Shown: piece after piece, positions 7,700 through 37,428 of the stretch | Layout: each line of letters opens with the position of its first letter | Numbering within the stretch: position 1 is the first letter of the stretch | Sequence record: OP114733 | Direction: 5' to 3' (one strand) | Source: Escherichia phage vB_EcoM-pEB20 | DNA: 64,000 bases | The notes under the pieces: generated by a model | Told to the model about the DNA's origin: nothing | Seen by the model: only the letters and a program-made list of their open reading frames with translations | Database searches by the model: none | Position numbers and translations under genes: made by a program

Positions 7700-9682
7700 T
7701 TAGGCACCTACAGCACCAATTAGTTCGTCGAAATCGGCACCCGTTGCTGTTGCTACAAAGTTCAACGTAATATAATTTATCGATCTCGCAGGTTGTAAGT
7801 AGAAAGTAGCTACAAATTCATTACGGTCTATAACTGCTGGTGTGTTATTGGTAGTATCACAAACAACTTTAAAGTTATATACACCACCGAGAGCTTTAAT
7901 ACCCTGTAGATATTGAGAAGTCTCTGTACGGAAAGAAGAACGGGTAAACGCGTTGTTCAATTCAAACAGGCGATATTTGGATGCTGAACCAATGTTCGTT
8001 TTAACCATATTGAACAAACGACGAACGTTAATACGGTCAAATGGTGAAGGAACAGAAGTGGCAGTTTTATCACCGTACAGAACATACCCATCACCACCGG
8101 TACCAGTAACAGGGTTAATAGCTTCCTGATACAAACGATCACGCTGCGCTTGGCGAGTTTCAATTGCAAGCTTAATAACGTTAAGAATTTGTCCACGGTT
8201 ATAACCGGCAGGAGACATCCAAGGCTGAGAAATATTGTCTGTGCGAGCACAAAGACCGGCAATATCAGCAGCTAATGGAACCCAACGATTCACGTCATTA
8301 TATTTGTCATATTGATATTTATAGTTACCGTCAATAGCAGCATAAGTAGAACTTACATTAAAGTTATTATCAGTGTAAGTTCCTGATGCAGTACGCCAAT
8401 CAACCAGATTATCAACTGCACGATTAACAGGAATACCGACTATAGTTGCACGTGGTGGTGAGCAAAGAACCAAGCAATCTTGGCGAGAATCACCAATTGC
8501 TACAACATGTTTCTGAACTGTAGAAGCAACTTCTAAAGATTCACCTGCACAAGAACCAGCAATAAACAACTGCGCATTAACAGATTCGCGGTCAGCAAAC
8601 AAATCCCAAGCTTCCATTAAATCACCAGCGTCAACCGTTTCATTAGATGATAAGCCACCACCCAGTTTGATTACGCCAGAGAAACCTTTTGGCCAACCTT
8701 GTGCAGTAGCGAAAATATAATTGCTTGCGCCTTTAGCAAAGAAATCATCAATAAAGATATTACTACCATAAATATCGCGTTCACCGCGTTTAGTAGAAAG
8801 AACTACACTCTGGACTACAGCATCGTTACGACGAACGATAATTGCATATTGGTCATCAGACTGTGGGCCATATCCAAAGATTGCTTTAGCAGTAGATGCA
8901 CGAGTACCACCATCAGGATAAATTTTTAACTGGGCTGAAGCACCTTTGTCATAGTCTGCTTTAGATACGATTTCAATTTCGAGCTGGTCGCCAAGTTCAC
9001 CAGGATAAAGAGCAACTACGCCCGGGACACCATATTTTTTAATAGATTCTTGGAAAGTTAGAGAAGTAATAGCTTCTTCAGAAGTTTCAACTTCAGTTAA
9101 CAGAATACCCGAATCGGTTACGATAGAACCAATTGTAATAACGCCAGAGAGACCAGAAGAAGAACTGGCAACTTCGGCGGTCCAGTTAGAACCCAATGCC
9201 GGATATTCATTAATTTCTTTTGCACGAGCAATAATTTTACCGGTTGGGATATAAATGTTAAGAATTTTACCATCGACATCAACCGAAGTGACATAACCAT
9301 CTGCTTCAACAGTTTCGGTCAAATACTTAACGATAATTTTATCACCAACTGCATAGTTACTACCAGCAGCAGAGATTGTGAATTCAATATTGCCTGCTAC
9401 AGGAGATGAGTTCTTAGCAGTATCACGGTCAACTGCGCGTACAACACGAAGGTCATTACCATATTGAAGGAAGTTCATAGCAGACATGAAATAATCTGCT
9501 GTATCCGTATTAGGAGTACCAAACATATCAACTAATGCAACTTCATCAGTGATTTGTTTAATCTGGAATGCAGGTCCCCATTGGAATTTTCCAGCCAGGG
9601 CAGCAGTACCAGTGGAGTTATTAACTACAGTACTCTGTACGGTAGTTTCTTTGAGCTCAACGCCCGGAGAGAGAAGTGCCAT
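7700..9682 (-). CDS. 18: tail sheath protein gp18
   Basis: 660 aa; length and order match T4 gp18. Confidence 0.9.
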   Translation of the reverse strand: MALLSPGVELKETTVQSTVVNNSTGTAALAGKFQWGPAFQIKQITDEVALVDMFGTPNTDTADYFMSAMNFLQYGNDLRVVRAVDRDTAKNSSPVAGNIEFTISAAGSNYAVGDKIIVKYLTETVEADGYVTSVDVDGKILNIYIPTGKIIARAKEINEYPALGSNWTAEVASSSSGLSGVITIGSIVTDSGILLTEVETSEEAITSLTFQESIKKYGVPGVVALYPGELGDQLEIEIVSKADYDKGASAQLKIYPDGGTRASTAKAIFGYGPQSDDQYAIIVRRNDAVVQSVVLSTKRGERDIYGSNIFIDDFFAKGASNYIFATAQGWPKGFSGVIKLGGGLSSNETVDAGDLMEAWDLFADRESVNAQLFIAGSCAGESLEVASTVQKHVVAIGDSRQDCLVLCSPPRATIVGIPVNRAVDNLVDWRTASGTYTDNNFNVSSTYAAIDGNYKYQYDKYNDVNRWVPLAADIAGLCARTDNISQPWMSPAGYNRGQILNVIKLAIETRQAQRDRLYQEAINPVTGTGGDGYVLYGDKTATSVPSPFDRINVRRLFNMVKTNIGSASKYRLFELNNAFTRSSFRTETSQYLQGIKALGGVYNFKVVCDTTNNTPAVIDRNEFVATFYLQPARSINYITLNFVATATGADFDELIGAVGA

Positions 9683-35396: not shown

Positions 35397-35912
35397 ATGA
35401 ATATTTGTTTAGGCAGTACAATTCCTAAGGGTTACGTAATTGATGTCACCACTTCGGAAAATGATGGTGACAACTATAAAACTAAAACGTTGTTTGGTGT
35501 AGAAGAGCATGAGCTCCAACAGTTTAAATATCTCTTGAAGAAATTTAAGAGTCGTCATTCTAGCACTAAAGCTGAACATTACTGTGGTAATACACCATTC
35601 AGTGATTGCTCGCTTTTAATCTATGAATACTTGGTTGAAGGACTGTTCTCAGACCAGCTTTATCCAGAATTCATTAAAAAGGTCTTTGATATTGAAGTCG
35701 ACCTCGGTAATAAATCTGAAGAAGATGAATCACGTGTATTTGACCTGTTCCGTGAGAATGGATATTTGGTATCAGAAGGTCTCATTGATATTCTCGGCCA
35801 TGCTTCTGAATATTATGATTATGATTTCTTGCGTGTAGTTGAATGTGTTGAATTTGCTTATATTGAAGAAGAAATCGTTTTGCCGACTGTTAAAATGATT
35901 GATTTGCTTTAA
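35397..35912 (+). CDS. hypothetical acidic protein
   Basis: 171 aa ORF. Confidence 0.5.
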   Translation: MNICLGSTIPKGYVIDVTTSENDGDNYKTKTLFGVEEHELQQFKYLLKKFKSRHSSTKAEHYCGNTPFSDCSLLIYEYLVEGLFSDQLYPEFIKKVFDIEVDLGNKSEEDESRVFDLFRENGYLVSEGLIDILGHASEYYDYDFLRVVECVEFAYIEEEIVLPTVKMIDLL

Positions 35913-35991
35913 GAATTATGTGTTATTATTAATTCATACCCTCTATTACCAAAGGTGCTCTAAAGTGCCTTTCATAATAGAAAGTTATTTA

Positions 35992-36065
35992 GGCCCTGTA
36001 GCTCAACGGTTAGCAGCAGTCCCCTCATAAGGGAAAGGTTACCAGTTCGAATCTGGTCTGGGTCA
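35992..36065 (+). tRNA. tRNA with anticodon CAU (Ile2/Met type)
   Basis: cloverleaf folded by hand; anticodon loop CTCATAA; T-arm ACCAG-TTCGAAT-CTGGT; CCA not encoded. Confidence 0.7.
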
Positions 36066-36071
36066 TATATT

Positions 36072-36148
<77 letters not shown>

Positions 36149-36166
36149 ACTTTAAGTGAGGAAAAT

Positions 36167-36511
36167 ATGAAAGGCAATATTTATCTGGTAGTTCATGATT
36201 TAACGTTTTATTTTAACGAACATGATACAGTTATTTCAGGCCGATTGATTAATTTGTTATACCAACACGCAGATTACATCTATGTTCAAAATGAATTCGG
36301 CCATTGGAAGTTCATTAAAAACCGTTCCAGGTTAACTAGTTTTGAATACTTTGACCGTAAAGACCTTTTAAACGAAATTCCATTGCAACATCGGTTCCAG
36401 AAACGCGAATCATTATATTATTGCCGTCATATACCAAACGCCGAATGTGTTAATGAAGCGATTAATCTATGGCGTCGGCGTCGAGAGCAAATTGATGATA
36501 TGCCAAAATAA
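36167..36511 (+). CDS. hypothetical protein
   Basis: ATG MKGNIYL after GAGGAAAA; the longer track ORF would overlap tRNA-Arg. Confidence 0.5.
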   Translation: MKGNIYLVVHDLTFYFNEHDTVISGRLINLLYQHADYIYVQNEFGHWKFIKNRSRLTSFEYFDRKDLLNEIPLQHRFQKRESLYYCRHIPNAECVNEAINLWRRRREQIDDMPK

Positions 36512-36822
36512 GAAGCCGGGTCGCTACCGGCAAGTCGTCGGACTGATGTTCCCTGGGTAAGGACTAGCCTTAATAAATCTTTATGTTTTGTTAATGCTCC
36601 CTTACATCACAGCAGAAACGGCGCACAGAATTATCGATTCGAGGAAATATCTTTGCCGTAAGCCGAGTAGCGTTTTTGACGGAACGTTCGGATATGGTCG
36701 AGATATGGCCTTTTAAAAATATTAAGTAGCGTCAACTACTTAATAACCAGGTTCAAATCCCGGCGTTTCGTACAAACACTTGCCTTAGCAGGTGGAACCC
36801 CGACAAGGTTGCCGCAAGGCTT

Positions 36823-36853
36823 AGCCCCTTCCGAAAGGTTGGGGCTTTTTTTT
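36823..36853 (+). terminator. rho-independent terminator
   Basis: agcccc-ttccgaaaggtt-ggggct followed by TTTTTTTT. Confidence 0.7.
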
Positions 36854-36897
36854 GCATAATAATAAATAGATAAGTTAATTAACTTAGGAAAAGTAAC

Positions 36898-37362
36898 ATG
36901 AAATCATATGCAGAATTTTTGACTGAACAATCTAGTTCAGATGTAAAAGCCGCTGCGATTGCAGCAATTCAAGCAGGTAAATATTCTTACAAAGACGCCT
37001 CTGATGAAGAACGTTTCCGTTTTATTAGAGATTTTAAAGCCGAAGGTTTTACTAATGCTAATACTGTTAGCCGAGTTTTTAAAAGCCTAGCTGCGTCAGG
37101 TGAATTGTTCCAGAAAGCTACAGGTAAAGCACCTGCGCCAAAAACAGACCCTAAAGCAGCTCAAGAAAAAAATATCGCCAAAGGAATTATTTCTAAGTAT
37201 GAAGCAATTCTTAAAGAGCTTTTAGTAATCAAAACAGAAGGCCAGAAACTGGCACGAGCACATAGCTTCAAAGATAATCCTCACGCTCATAGCCTTGAGT
37301 ATGTTGAAGATATCCAAAAACTTATTAAAGACCGTATCTGGTCTGCTAAACAAATTAAATAA
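36898..37362 (+). CDS. internal protein (IPIII-like) with capsid-targeting sequence
   Basis: N-terminus MKSYAEFLTE; 154 aa Ala/Lys-rich. Confidence 0.65.
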   Translation: MKSYAEFLTEQSSSDVKAAAIAAIQAGKYSYKDASDEERFRFIRDFKAEGFTNANTVSRVFKSLAASGELFQKATGKAPAPKTDPKAAQEKNIAKGIISKYEAILKELLVIKTEGQKLARAHSFKDNPHAHSLEYVEDIQKLIKDRIWSAKQIK

Positions 37363-37367
37363 TAGAA

Positions 37368-37396
37368 TGCCCCTTCCTTATGGTTGGGGCCTTTTG
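37368..37396 (+). terminator. rho-independent terminator
   Basis: gcccc-ttccttatggtt-ggggc then CTTTTGG; same hairpin family as 36823 and 52604. Confidence 0.6.
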
Positions 37397-37428
37397 GTAT
37401 CTAGGGCATAAAAATATTTCATAAAGTT

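What the first reader, a model, noticed from the sequence alone, without database searches (positions are those of the whole stretch)
36512..36856. About 345 bp without a convincing ORF downstream of the tRNAs, ending in a strong terminator
The interval has no promoter cassette and no ORF with an RBS. It contains a tRNA-like T-arm fragment (ggttcaaatcccgg near 36748) and several GC-rich helices (gccgggtcgctaccggc; the 36823 hairpin plus T8). In T4 the tRNA cluster is followed by two small stable RNAs (species 1 and 2, RNA C/D) of unknown function, so this may encode their counterparts.
Basis: partly seen in the sequence, partly recalled or inferred. Interest (0 to 1): 0.45.

Follow-up and report, generated by a model that had tools for sequence, protein, structure and literature searches.

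The report
T4 rnaD and rnaC small RNAs
This gene-free stretch holds this phage's copies of the two small stable RNAs (rnaD and rnaC) that phage T4 makes from the end of its tRNA operon; they have been known for about 50 years and their function is still unknown, so the finding is correct but not new.

Summary
Window 36508-36627 is the orthologue of T4 rnaD (species 2 RNA, 86% identical). Window 36634-36772 is the orthologue of T4 rnaC (species 1 RNA, 135/139 identical, no gaps). Window 36773-36853 is the conserved trailer plus intrinsic terminator of the tRNA operon. The close relative ATK47 already annotates rnaC at the matching place. No Rfam family covers either RNA.

There is no coding signal. 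Stop-free stretches are no longer than in shuffles, variable columns show no 3-base periodicity, and indels are not multiples of 3.

Comparison across at least 10 Tevenvirinae genera supports both folds by covariation. rnaC is a four-way junction. A 7-bp acceptor-like stem stacks on a 5-bp T-arm, forming a tRNA minihelix, and there are two further arms. The loops of those two arms (UUGACG and CGUCAA) are exact complements in all 23 sequences and co-vary twice, so I propose a kissing-loop contact.

rnaC, rnaD and the trailer behave as independent modules inside tRNA clusters.

Function remains unknown. My best guess is accessory protein-binding RNAs that use tRNA mimicry for processing and stability. 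This is an already known family, of modest interest.

The parts
35905..35929 (+). Context: probable MotA-type middle promoter of the tRNA operon (TGCTTTA 35905-35911, 12-nt spacer, TATTAT 35924-35929)
   Evidence: Read from the sequence. The block ATGCTTTAAGAATTAT.TGTTATTATTAA is conserved with T4 just upstream of its first tRNA gene. PMC2330249 states that a middle promoter just upstream of the T4 tRNA cluster drives the whole cluster. Calling it a MotA box rests on the known consensus and is an inference.
35992..36148 (+). Context: two tRNA genes, tRNA(CAU) at 35992-36065 and tRNA-Arg(UCU) at 36072-36148
   Evidence: ARAGORN and the Rfam tRNA model at 52.4 and 71.1 bits. The first is 96% identical to T4 tRNA-Ile.
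36167..36511 (+). Context: 114-aa ORF (RB69ORF150c family, phrog_3355, function unknown) inserted between tRNA-Arg and rnaD; its stop codon overlaps the mapped 5' end of rnaD
   Evidence: In T4 and in L014/L025-type phages, rnaD follows the tRNA directly.
36508..36627 (+). rnaD orthologue (T4 species 2 RNA), about 120 nt; ends mapped by homology only
   Evidence: Alignment to T4 rnaD: 86% identity with 3 gap columns. Consensus fold is 94.6% paired against 33-50% in slid controls, with 9 pairs showing compensatory change. MFE -36.7 kcal/mol, z = -2.1.
36515..36531 (+). rnaD 5' hairpin H1: GCCGG / loop GUCGCUA / CCGGC
   Evidence: The loop is identical in 16 of the 17 aligned sequences; in Clarke_MM3 a longer hairpin replaces H1. 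The stem co-varies (A-U to G-C in 5 sequences; C-G to A-U in phage A5-4).
36534..36626 (+). rnaD main arm: closing stem 36534-36540 with 36619-36626, conserved internal loop GGACUGA/GAAA, helices H3 and H4, hypervariable apical hairpin
   Evidence: Three unrelated apical variants occur among otherwise near-identical phages.
36628..36633 (+). 6-nt spacer GAAUUA between rnaD and rnaC
   Evidence: T4 has AAAUUA.
36634..36772 (+). rnaC orthologue (T4 species 1 RNA), 139 nt
   Evidence: 135/139 identical to T4 rnaC with no gaps. Covariance model R1 scores 159.7 bits, E = 6e-37, and finds a single copy in the window. MFE -43.9 kcal/mol, z = -3.6, 0 of 200 shuffles as stable. The structure is 91.7% paired against about 40% in slid controls, with 25 pairs showing compensatory change and 0 of 500 shuffles reaching it.
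36635..36641 (+). rnaC P1, 5' strand of the acceptor-like stem (CGAUUCG); pairs with 36764-36770 (CGUUUCG) with two conserved U.U mismatches
   Evidence: The A-U pair at the third position is G-C in 12 of 23 sequences. Yersinia phage TG1 has all seven pairs standard (U-A and C-G in place of the U.U pairs).
36647..36706 (+). rnaC long arm P3 (four helical segments), closed by P2 (36642-36644 with 36709-36711)
   Evidence: The apical helix has 5 of 7 pairs with compensatory change. Gelderlandvirus, Moonvirus and the Klebsiella phages carry a different arm sequence of the same length.
36676..36681 (+). rnaC loop L3, UUGACG, proposed kissing partner of L4
   Evidence: Exact reverse complement of L4 in 23 of 23 sequences. 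TG1 has UUGAUG/CAUCAA and Clarke_MM3 has UUGGCG/CGCCAA.
36712..36719 (+). rnaC single-stranded linker (UUUAAAAA); with the preceding CC it reads CCU-NNN-AAAAAU, with a hypervariable middle
   Evidence: Some GenBank records read it as a tRNA-Lys(UUU) anticodon loop.
36720..36745 (+). rnaC arm P4 (10 bp) with loop L4, CGUCAA, at 36730-36735
   Evidence: 8 of 10 pairs show compensatory change and 97% of cells are paired. The loop is complementary to L3.
36747..36763 (+). rnaC P5, T-arm-like hairpin CCAGG / UUCAAAU / CCCGG; contiguous with the 3' strand of P1; has an A.C mismatch at 36749/36761
   Evidence: The third pair co-varies (G-C in 11 sequences, U-A in 9, U-G in 1). The window and ATK47 carry A.C there.
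36773..36822 (+). Conserved operon trailer: hairpin 36777-36794 (CACUUGC/GCAGGUG), nearly invariant single strand GAACCCCGACAAGGUU, and small GCAA-loop hairpin 36811-36820
   Evidence: It is retained next to rnaD when rnaC is absent (JS98 type). It also occurs in Erwinia phage IT22 with neither RNA adjacent. The small hairpin co-varies (GCC/GGC with ACC/GGU).
36823..36853 (+). Intrinsic terminator: GCCCC-UU-CC-GAAA-GG-UU-GGGGC (36824-45) then U8 (36846-53)
   Evidence: The stem co-varies (GCCCC/GGGGC with GGCCC/GGGCC), and T4 has the stem fully paired. PMC2330249 states that T4 tRNA-cluster transcription terminates after the species I gene.

Best explanation
Identity. The interval holds the orthologues of phage T4 rnaD (species 2 RNA, 36508-36627) and rnaC (species 1 RNA, 36634-36772). 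They are followed by the conserved trailer and intrinsic terminator of the tRNA operon (36773-36853). This step is shown by homology, synteny and covariation.

Biogenesis. This step is inferred from T4.
- One transcript starts at the conserved middle-type promoter at 35905-35929.
- It runs through tRNA(CAU), tRNA-Arg and the 114-aa ORF, then rnaD and rnaC, and stops at the U8 terminator.
- Host tRNA-processing enzymes cut out the two RNAs.
- rnaC presents a 7-bp acceptor-like stem stacked on a 5-bp T-arm. That is the minimal shape RNase P and the tRNA 3'-end enzymes recognise. It explains why rnaC sits in tRNA clusters exactly like a tRNA gene.

Structure. The secondary structure is shown by covariation. 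The tertiary contact is my proposal.
- rnaC is a four-way junction.
- The loop of its long arm (UUGACG) pairs with the loop of the fourth arm (CGUCAA), which would lock a compact, nuclease-resistant fold.
- rnaD is a 5' hairpin with a conserved loop (identical in 16 of 17 sequences), followed by a long irregular hairpin with an invariant internal loop and a hypervariable tip.

Function. This is inference only.
- These are non-coding, protein-binding accessory RNAs.
- rnaC is most likely a tRNA mimic that engages or titrates a host or phage protein that recognises tRNA.
- They would affect fitness on particular hosts rather than being essential.
For: Homology and synteny.
- rnaC 97.1% and rnaD 86% identical to T4, in the same order.
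- ATK47 annotates rnaC at the matching place.

Stronger constraint than on neighbouring genes.
- The RNA block is 92% identical to T4, against 70-81% for flanking protein genes.

Non-coding.
-.

Structure.
- rnaC: (91.7% of cells paired against about 40% in slid controls; 25 pairs with compensatory change; 0 of 500 shuffles reach it).
- rnaD.
- Independent MFE folds of 9 of 10 diverse rnaC homologues give the same four-way junction.

Kissing loops.
- 138 of 138 cells paired.
- The only two lineages that changed one loop changed the other in a complementary way.
- Total length stays at 140-144 nt even where the long arm has a different sequence.

tRNA-gene-like placement.
- rnaC lies directly after tRNA-Met in Kanagawavirus, between tRNA-Phe and tRNA-Trp in Winklervirus, and between tRNA-Trp and tRNA-Gly in Karamvirus and Gelderlandvirus.
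- tRNAs score weakly against the rnaC covariance model through the acceptor and T arms.

Co-transcription.
- The promoter is conserved with T4 and there is no internal promoter.

Expression in T4.
- Northern blot of RNAC, and classification of RNAC and RNAD as late RNAs (PMC9697503).

Accessory, host-linked role.
- rnaC or rnaD is independently absent or replaced in different genera.
- In a T4-like phage evolved on the semi-permissive host ECOR34, the one SNP shared by all lines fell in rnaD (PMC12685909).
Against: - No expression data exist for this phage. All RNA ends are mapped from T4 coordinates only.
- Here rnaD is preceded by an ORF, not by a tRNA as in T4, so its 5' end may be made differently.
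- This phage's T-arm has an A.C mismatch (36749/36761), and Kanagawavirus and Winklervirus have T-loops (UGCAUGC, UGCAUCC) that depart from the tRNA consensus. A canonical T-loop is therefore not required.
- The 3' tail is UACA, not NCCA.
- The kissing-loop proposal rests on two compensatory events only. It could equally be an intermolecular (dimer) contact.
- The sequences are related, so the shuffle controls overstate significance. The slid controls are the fairer comparison.
- The function remains unknown in the literature (PMC3014915, PMC9697503). Nothing here identifies a partner.
- No similarity to any E. coli sequence was found.
Confidence: 0.9

Rival explanations
1. The block is only a cis-acting 3' module of the tRNA operon. 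On this view the structured RNA protects the transcript from 3' exonucleases, guides processing and terminates transcription. The excised pieces are stable by-products with no function of their own.
For: - The block sits at the 3' end of the operon in the window, T4 and JS98-type phages.
- The trailer and terminator are the most constantly retained part.
- No trans-acting function has been found in about 50 years (PMC3014915).
Against: - In Winklervirus, Karamvirus, Gelderlandvirus and Moonvirus, rnaC lies in the middle of tRNA clusters and is followed by more tRNAs, so it is not a 3' cap.
- Loop and internal-loop sequences that pair with nothing nearby are conserved across genera in nearly every sequence. 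A mere stabiliser does not need that.
- rnaC is 97% identical to T4, which is more than the neighbouring genes.
Confidence: 0.12
2. rnaC is a decayed tRNA gene, a pseudo-tRNA. The 3' 94 nt would fold as a class II tRNA with CUUUUAA as a tRNA-Lys anticodon loop, as some GenBank records annotate it, and the rest would be spacer.
For: - ARAGORN calls a 95-nt tRNA-Met inside the Karamvirus homologue at default settings.
- At relaxed settings it makes similar calls in the window and T4.
- G4507 and G9062 annotate tRNA-Lys(ttt) and tRNA-???(aa) there.
- The internal CGGAACG can pair with the 3' strand CGUUUCG.
Against: - The alternative acceptor helix shows no compensatory change. It is mismatched in 9 of 23 sequences at one position and broken in TG1.
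- The 5'-terminal strand co-varies with the 3' strand, and TG1 repairs both U.U pairs.
- No D-arm or anticodon stem can be drawn.
- The Rfam tRNA model and default ARAGORN find nothing in the window's rnaC.
- The variable linker is 3 to 6 nt long, not a fixed triplet.
- A pseudogene would not keep 25 co-varying pairs.
Confidence: 0.03
3. The interval encodes one or more small proteins, for example the 42-aa TTG-start ORF at 36588-36716 or the 34-aa minus-strand ORFs.
For: Many GenBank records lay 'hypothetical protein' features over the homologous stretch.
Against: - Stop-free stretches are no longer than in shuffles.
- Variable columns are spread evenly over the three codon positions, 37/31/30 in rnaC and 25/19/26 in rnaD.
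- Single-base indels separate the window from T4.
- The 42-aa ORF straddles the rnaD/rnaC junction, and the two halves occur separately in other genera.
- Substitutions are compensatory in RNA helices.
Confidence: 0.01
4. The conserved feature acts at the DNA level. It could be a homing-endonuclease target, a recombination hotspot or a protein-binding inverted repeat (TTGACG...CGTCAA), and the RNA folds would be incidental.
For: - The T4 tRNA region is subject to SegB-driven preferred inheritance (PMC2330249).
- The region is a mosaic of inserted and lost modules.
- Complementary loops are also an inverted repeat in DNA.
Against: - G-U and U-G pairs are tolerated in helices, which makes sense for RNA and not for DNA.
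- Covariation is strand-specific and covers five nested helices.
- Discrete stable RNAs are seen in T4 (PMC9697503).
Confidence: 0.02

Closest known systems
Phage T4 rnaC (species 1 RNA; NC_000866 70908-71046, minus strand)
   Same: 135 of 139 nt identical without gaps. Same length and same position: after rnaD and before the operon terminator. Same predicted four-way junction.
   Different: Four substitutions. One creates an A.C mismatch in the T-arm (T4 has CCGGG/CCCGG) and one changes the T-loop from UUCGAAU to UUCAAAU. Expression has not been measured for this phage.
Phage T4 rnaD (species 2 RNA; NC_000866 71053-71171, minus strand)
   Same: 86% identical. The 5' hairpin with loop GUCGCUA, the closing stem and the internal loop are all conserved.
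   Different: The apical hairpin has diverged and there are single-base indels. In T4, rnaD starts 2 nt after tRNA-Arg. Here a 114-aa ORF lies in between and its stop codon overlaps the mapped 5' end.
tRNA (Rfam RF00005) and tRNA-like RNase P substrates such as the tmRNA tRNA-like domain and bacterial Y-RNA-like YrlA
   Same: A 7-bp terminal stem is directly contiguous with a 5-bp hairpin carrying a 7-nt UUCRAAU loop. rnaC is embedded in tRNA clusters with tRNA-like spacing.
   Different: There is no D-arm and no anticodon arm. The length is 139 nt. Tandem U.U pairs are conserved in the stem. The 3' tail is UACA, not CCA. No tRNA, tmRNA or YrlA model matches rnaC even at E = 10.
Loop-loop kissing complexes (HIV TAR/TAR*, ColE1 RNA I/RNA II); comparison from general knowledge
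   Same: Two hairpin loops of 6 nt are fully complementary to each other and co-vary.
   Different: Here both loops are in one molecule, so the contact would be intramolecular, or would make a symmetric dimer. It has not been shown experimentally.
E. coli 3'ETS-leuZ, a tRNA-operon trailer that acts as an sRNA sponge (from general knowledge); comparison for the trailer 36773-36853 only
   Same: It lies between the last tRNA-like gene and the intrinsic terminator. It would be released by 3' processing. It has a conserved single-stranded stretch followed by a terminator hairpin and a U-tail.
   Different: No sequence relationship was found with any E. coli sequence. No evidence exists that the trailer accumulates or binds Hfq.

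Membership tests
T4 rnaC (species 1 RNA) | Full-length sequence homology to the T4 rnaC gene | tested here: met
   135/139 identical with no gaps. Covariance model built from 23 homologues scores 159.7 bits.
T4 rnaC (species 1 RNA) | Location within or at the end of the phage tRNA gene cluster, on the same strand, upstream of the operon terminator | tested here: met
   The order is tRNA(CAU), tRNA-Arg, ORF, rnaD, rnaC, terminator.
T4 rnaC (species 1 RNA) | Conserved secondary structure maintained by compensatory changes | tested here: met
   91.7% of cells paired and 25 pairs with changes on both sides, against about 40% paired in slid controls.
T4 rnaC (species 1 RNA) | Accumulates as a discrete stable RNA of about 140 nt in infected cells | not testable with these tools
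   Shown for T4 by northern blot (PMC9697503). No data exist for this phage.
T4 rnaD (species 2 RNA) | Sequence homology to T4 rnaD and position immediately 5' of rnaC | tested here: met
   86% identity over 120 nt, followed by a 6-nt spacer and then rnaC.
T4 rnaD (species 2 RNA) | Conserved fold | tested here: met
   94.6% of cells paired and 9 pairs with compensatory change. The closing stem varies only by single G-U changes and one mismatch, so it is uninformative.
T4 rnaD (species 2 RNA) | Starts directly after tRNA-Arg, as in T4 | tested here: not met
   A 114-aa ORF (36167-36511) separates tRNA-Arg from rnaD. This concerns gene order, not the RNA itself. ATK47 and RB69 share this arrangement.
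tRNA | Cloverleaf with D-arm, anticodon arm and T-arm, recognised by tRNA models | tested here: not met
   ARAGORN at default settings and Rfam RF00005 find only the two true tRNAs. The relaxed ARAGORN fold uses a helix that covariation rejects.
tRNA | Acceptor stem stacked on T-arm (minihelix) | tested here: met
   P1 (7 bp) and P5 (5 bp) are contiguous and both co-vary.
Any Rfam 15 family (ribozymes, tmRNA, Y RNA, sRNAs) | Score at or above the family's gathering threshold | tested here: not met
   No match at gathering threshold. At E up to 10 only far sub-threshold chance-level hits appear in the interval.
Intrinsic (Rho-independent) terminator | G+C-rich hairpin followed at once by a U-run | tested here: met
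   The sequence 36824-36853 folds as predicted. The stem co-varies among phages. The simple scan missed it because of the internal U.U pairs.

The most novel reading that the evidence does not exclude
rnaC is a tRNA-shaped decoy. Its acceptor/T-arm minihelix gets it processed and stabilised like a tRNA. A kissing-loop contact gives it a compact, elbow-like body. It would then titrate a host factor that targets tRNA, such as an anticodon nuclease or another tRNA-directed defence or RNase. The hypervariable CCU-NNN-AAAAAU linker would imitate the anticodon loop of whichever tRNA the local hosts attack. It reads UUU or CUU (Lys), UCU (Arg), UAC (Val) or UUG (Gln) in different genera.

In parallel, the conserved trailer 36773-36853 would be released as a 3'ETS-type small RNA.

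This would finally give a function to RNAs that have been unexplained since the 1970s.
Probability: 0.08. Interest if true: 0.75.

Novelty: already known. Interest (0 to 1): 0.25.

Why it matters
The finding itself is a correct re-identification of rnaC and rnaD, so it adds nothing new about this phage.

What may be useful is the comparative by-product. These are among the oldest known phage small RNAs and still have no function and no Rfam family. Many GenBank records annotate them as hypothetical proteins or spurious tRNAs.

The analysis gives four things.
- A covariation-supported structure for each RNA.
- A specific, mutable tertiary contact in rnaC (UUGACG with CGUCAA).
- Evidence that rnaC, rnaD and the trailer are independent modules gained and lost inside tRNA clusters.
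- A list of nearly invariant unpaired motifs that are candidate binding sites.

Together with the published convergent rnaD mutation on a semi-permissive host, this makes a host-range or anti-defence role directly testable.

Tried and rejected
- **Rfam 15.** The gathering-threshold scan of the whole window and the E up to 10 scan of 35900-36950 found no family for either RNA. This excludes ribozymes, tmRNA (including permuted), YrlA and known sRNAs.
- **Alternative rnaC fold.** In this fold the internal CGGAACG forms the acceptor stem, giving a class II tRNA as ARAGORN and some GenBank records call it. It is rejected because it shows no compensatory change and is broken in TG1 and in 9 of 23 sequences at one pair.
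- **Coding potential.** Rejected.
- **Host origin or host mimicry at sequence level.** There is no blastn match in 5,426 complete E. coli genomes.
- **More divergent homologues, to add independent covariation events.**
  - Two IMG/VR pattern scans and one metagenome scan returned only the sequence types already in hand, plus chance hits in G+C-rich contigs.
  - The known range therefore stays within Tevenvirinae of Enterobacterales.
- **rnaD in other phage families.** The rnaD-like copy in the Vequintavirinae phage A5-4 is a single case, 85% identical to JS98. I read it as lateral transfer or a chimeric assembly, not a wider distribution.
- **Anticodon-loop reading of the rnaC linker.** No flanking stem can be drawn, and the variable part is 3-6 nt long. 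I kept it only as a low-probability speculation.
- **Literature.** Searches found no functional study.
  - The classic T4 genome review (PMC150520) is not held.
  - A September 2026 preprint on H-NS and antiviral immunity mentions rnaC once, but could not be opened.
- **Recalled, not verified.** From memory, 1970s-80s work reported RNase III cleavage of species 1 RNA in vitro and a joint precursor of species 2 and 1. I could not verify these here and they are not used as evidence.
Full report
**What is at the coordinates**

The window is a T4-like phage of the Mosigvirus (RB69) type. The interval's best matches are Escherichia phages MLF4, ATK47 and phiC120 at about 97%.

Two tRNA genes lie at 35992-36065 and 36072-36148. 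A 114-aa ORF of a known phage family with unknown function (phrog_3355) runs from 36167 to its TAA at 36509-36511. The next ORF (phrog_2280) starts at 36898.

- The longest listed ORF is 42 aa with a TTG start.
- The longest stop-free stretch is 59 codons, against 65 +/- 15 in shuffles.
- No sigma-70-like site lies on the + strand inside it, and no TATAAATA late promoter is nearby.
- The hairpin gccgg-gtcgcta-ccggc is at 36515-36531 and the T-arm-like ggttcaaatcccgg is at 36750-36763.
- The terminator GCCCC-UU-CC-GAAA-GG-UU-GGGGC plus U8 is at 36824-36853.

One correction is needed. The interval does not follow the tRNAs directly, because the 114-aa ORF lies between them.

**Identity**

The T4 reference record annotates rnaD (species 2 RNA, 119 nt) and rnaC (species 1 RNA, 139 nt) immediately after tRNA-Arg. 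Alignment gives the following.

| Window | T4 counterpart | Identity |
|---|---|---|
| 36508-36627 | rnaD | 86%, 3 gap columns |
| 36628-36633 | spacer | 5 of 6 |
| 36634-36772 | rnaC | 135/139, no gaps |
| 36773-36853 | trailer and terminator | 90% |

ATK47 carries an ncRNA 'rnaC; species 1 RNA' feature at the matching place. RB33, Aplg8, RB3 and RB7 annotate rnaC and/or rnaD under the match. Many other records annotate nothing there, or lay 'hypothetical protein' over it.

In the same neighbourhood, protein-coding genes are only 70-81% identical to T4. The RNA block is 92% identical and the first tRNA 96%. The RNA genes are therefore the most constrained sequences in the region.

**Not coding, not another known RNA family**
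- Variable alignment columns show no 3-base periodicity.
- Indels relative to T4 are single bases.
- The only sizeable ORF spans the rnaD/rnaC junction, although the two halves occur separately in other genera.
- Rfam 15 has no match at gathering threshold and only far sub-threshold chance-level hits in the interval at E up to 10. Neither RNA has an Rfam family.
- There is no similarity to any complete E. coli genome.

**Structure of rnaC**

I collected 23 distinct homologues from Tequatrovirus, Mosigvirus, Kanagawavirus, Winklervirus, Karamvirus, Tegunavirus, Gelderlandvirus, Moonvirus, a Klebsiella phage group and unclassified IMG/VR contigs. All are 140-144 nt long.

The fold is a four-way junction with these parts.
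- P1 is a 7-bp terminal stem.
- P2 and P3 form a long arm of about 60 nt.
- P4 is a 10-bp arm.
- P5 is a 5-bp hairpin with a 7-nt loop, directly contiguous with the 3' strand of P1.

On the alignment, 91.7% of cells form standard pairs, against 38-46% when partners are slid by 1-3 columns. Twenty-five of 49 pairs show changes on both sides, and no shuffle reaches any measure. Independent MFE folds of 9 of 10 diverse members give the same junction.

P1 plus P5 is a tRNA acceptor/T-arm minihelix.
- In P1 the third pair is A-U in the T4 type and G-C elsewhere.
- Two central U.U mismatches are conserved in 22 of 23 sequences.
- In Yersinia phage TG1 both are replaced by standard pairs.

ARAGORN, and some GenBank records, instead fold the 3' 94 nt as a class II tRNA using an internal CGGAACG as acceptor strand. 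That helix has no compensatory change and is broken in many members. I reject it.

**A proposed tertiary contact**

The apical loop of the long arm, UUGACG (36676-36681), is the exact reverse complement of the P4 loop, CGUCAA (36730-36735).
- All 23 sequences keep 6 of 6 complementarity.
- The only two lineages that changed one loop changed the other to match. TG1 has UUGAUG/CAUCAA and Klebsiella phage Clarke_MM3 has UUGGCG/CGCCAA.
- The complementarity also holds in phages whose long arm is otherwise a different sequence of the same length.

I propose a 6-bp kissing-loop contact that compacts the molecule. An intermolecular (dimer) version fits the data equally well. With two independent events this is a well-founded hypothesis, not a demonstration.

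**Structure of rnaD**

Seventeen homologues give four elements.
- A 5' hairpin whose loop GUCGCUA is identical in 16 of the 17 sequences. Its stem co-varies.
- A closing stem that hardly varies, so it gives no covariation information.
- An invariant internal loop (GGACUGA opposite GAAA).
- Two further helices with compensatory changes.

Overall 94.6% of cells are paired against 33-50% in slid controls, and 9 pairs have double changes. The tip of the arm exists in three unrelated versions among otherwise near-identical phages.

**Modularity**
- rnaC occurs without rnaD, embedded among tRNA genes with tRNA-like spacing, in Kanagawavirus, Winklervirus, Karamvirus, Tegunavirus, Gelderlandvirus and Moonvirus.
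- JS98-type phages have rnaD joined directly to the trailer, with rnaC absent from this locus.
- In VR20 a 127-aa ORF occupies the rnaC slot.
- Erwinia phage IT22 keeps only the trailer.

The three parts are therefore independent units that are gained and lost like the tRNA genes around them.

**How it most likely works**

Shown: identity, non-coding nature and conserved folds.

Inferred from T4:
- One transcript starts at a promoter that is conserved with T4 just upstream of the first tRNA (TGCTTTA-N12-TATTAT, 35905-35929).
- It ends at the U8 terminator.
- The RNAs are excised by host tRNA-processing enzymes, for which the rnaC minihelix is the natural handle.

Function is unknown in the literature (PMC3014915, PMC9697503). 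I commit to accessory, protein-binding RNAs, with rnaC acting as a tRNA mimic, for these reasons.
- Unpaired motifs are conserved across genera in nearly every sequence.
- The modules are dispensable in whole genera.
- When a T4-like phage was evolved on a semi-permissive host, the single mutation shared by all lines fell in rnaD (PMC12685909).

My confidence in the functional part is low, about 0.2-0.3. My confidence in identity and biogenesis is about 0.9 or higher.

**Verdict**

This is an already known family: T4 rnaC and rnaD orthologues plus the operon terminator. Interest is modest and comes from the structure model and the testable contact, not from the finding itself.

Noticed in passing
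window 35992-36065: ARAGORN calls this tRNA-Met (anticodon CAT), but it is 96% identical to the gene that the T4 record annotates as tRNA-Ile. It is probably the lysidine-dependent tRNA-Ile(CAU) and not a methionine tRNA.
   Followed up: partly
window 36167-36511: A 114-aa ORF (phrog_3355, RB69ORF150c family, no Pfam domain) is inserted exactly between tRNA-Arg and rnaD. In T4 and in several IMG/VR phages, rnaD follows the tRNA within a few bases. The ORF's stop codon overlaps the mapped rnaD 5' end.
   Followed up: partly
window 36773-36822 (and L007:1503-1565, L025, L027-L030): The operon trailer upstream of the terminator is conserved across genera, including an almost invariant single strand GAACCCCGACAAGGUU. 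It persists where rnaC, or both RNAs, are missing. Its layout is hairpin, single strand, small hairpin, then terminator with U-tail. That resembles an Hfq-type small RNA released from a tRNA operon 3' spacer.
   Followed up: partly
L007:1566-1790 (Erwinia phage IT22, Roskildevirus): After the trailer-like element there are about 230 nt with no annotated gene, directly before a tRNA-Met. The stretch ends in a T-arm-like GGGTTCGAGTCCC. No Rfam family matched it.
   Followed up: partly
L006:2495-2620 (Escherichia phage A5-4, Vequintavirinae): An rnaD-like element directly follows tRNA-Tyr in a phage that is not T4-like. It is 85% identical to the JS98 rnaD and has a compensatory change in the 5' hairpin. 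It was the only non-T4-like record seen among the listed hits. It is either lateral transfer or a chimeric assembly.
   Followed up: partly
L058:354-447 (phage G4507) and L059:468-563 (phage G9062): Public records annotate the 3' part of rnaC as 'tRNA-Lys(ttt)' and 'tRNA-???(aa)'. Many other records place 'hypothetical protein' features over rnaC and rnaD. These look like systematic mis-annotations of this RNA family.
   Followed up: yes
L024 (phage VR20), reverse-complement coordinates 8120-8625: The slot between rnaD and the trailer, which holds rnaC in the window, is occupied by a 127-aa ORF with its own upstream region.
   Followed up: partly
L031:1430-1570 (Klebsiella phage Clarke_MM3): This divergent rnaD homologue has its short 5' hairpin replaced by a much longer one, while the flanking motifs AAGAAGC and GCAAGUCGUCGAACUGA are kept. 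Its rnaC (L031:1926-2067) ends in UCCA, a true CCA tail, where T4-type phages have UACA.
   Followed up: partly
window 37369-37403: A second terminator hairpin after the next gene resembles the one at 36824-36853 (gccccttcc...ggttggggc). This explains the two-piece BLAST matches about 890 bp apart in related phages.
   Followed up: no
window 36861-36868: Right after the terminator the window has AATAAATA. Several relatives have the canonical late promoter TATAAATA at that position. The downstream gene's late promoter may be weakened in this phage.
   Followed up: no
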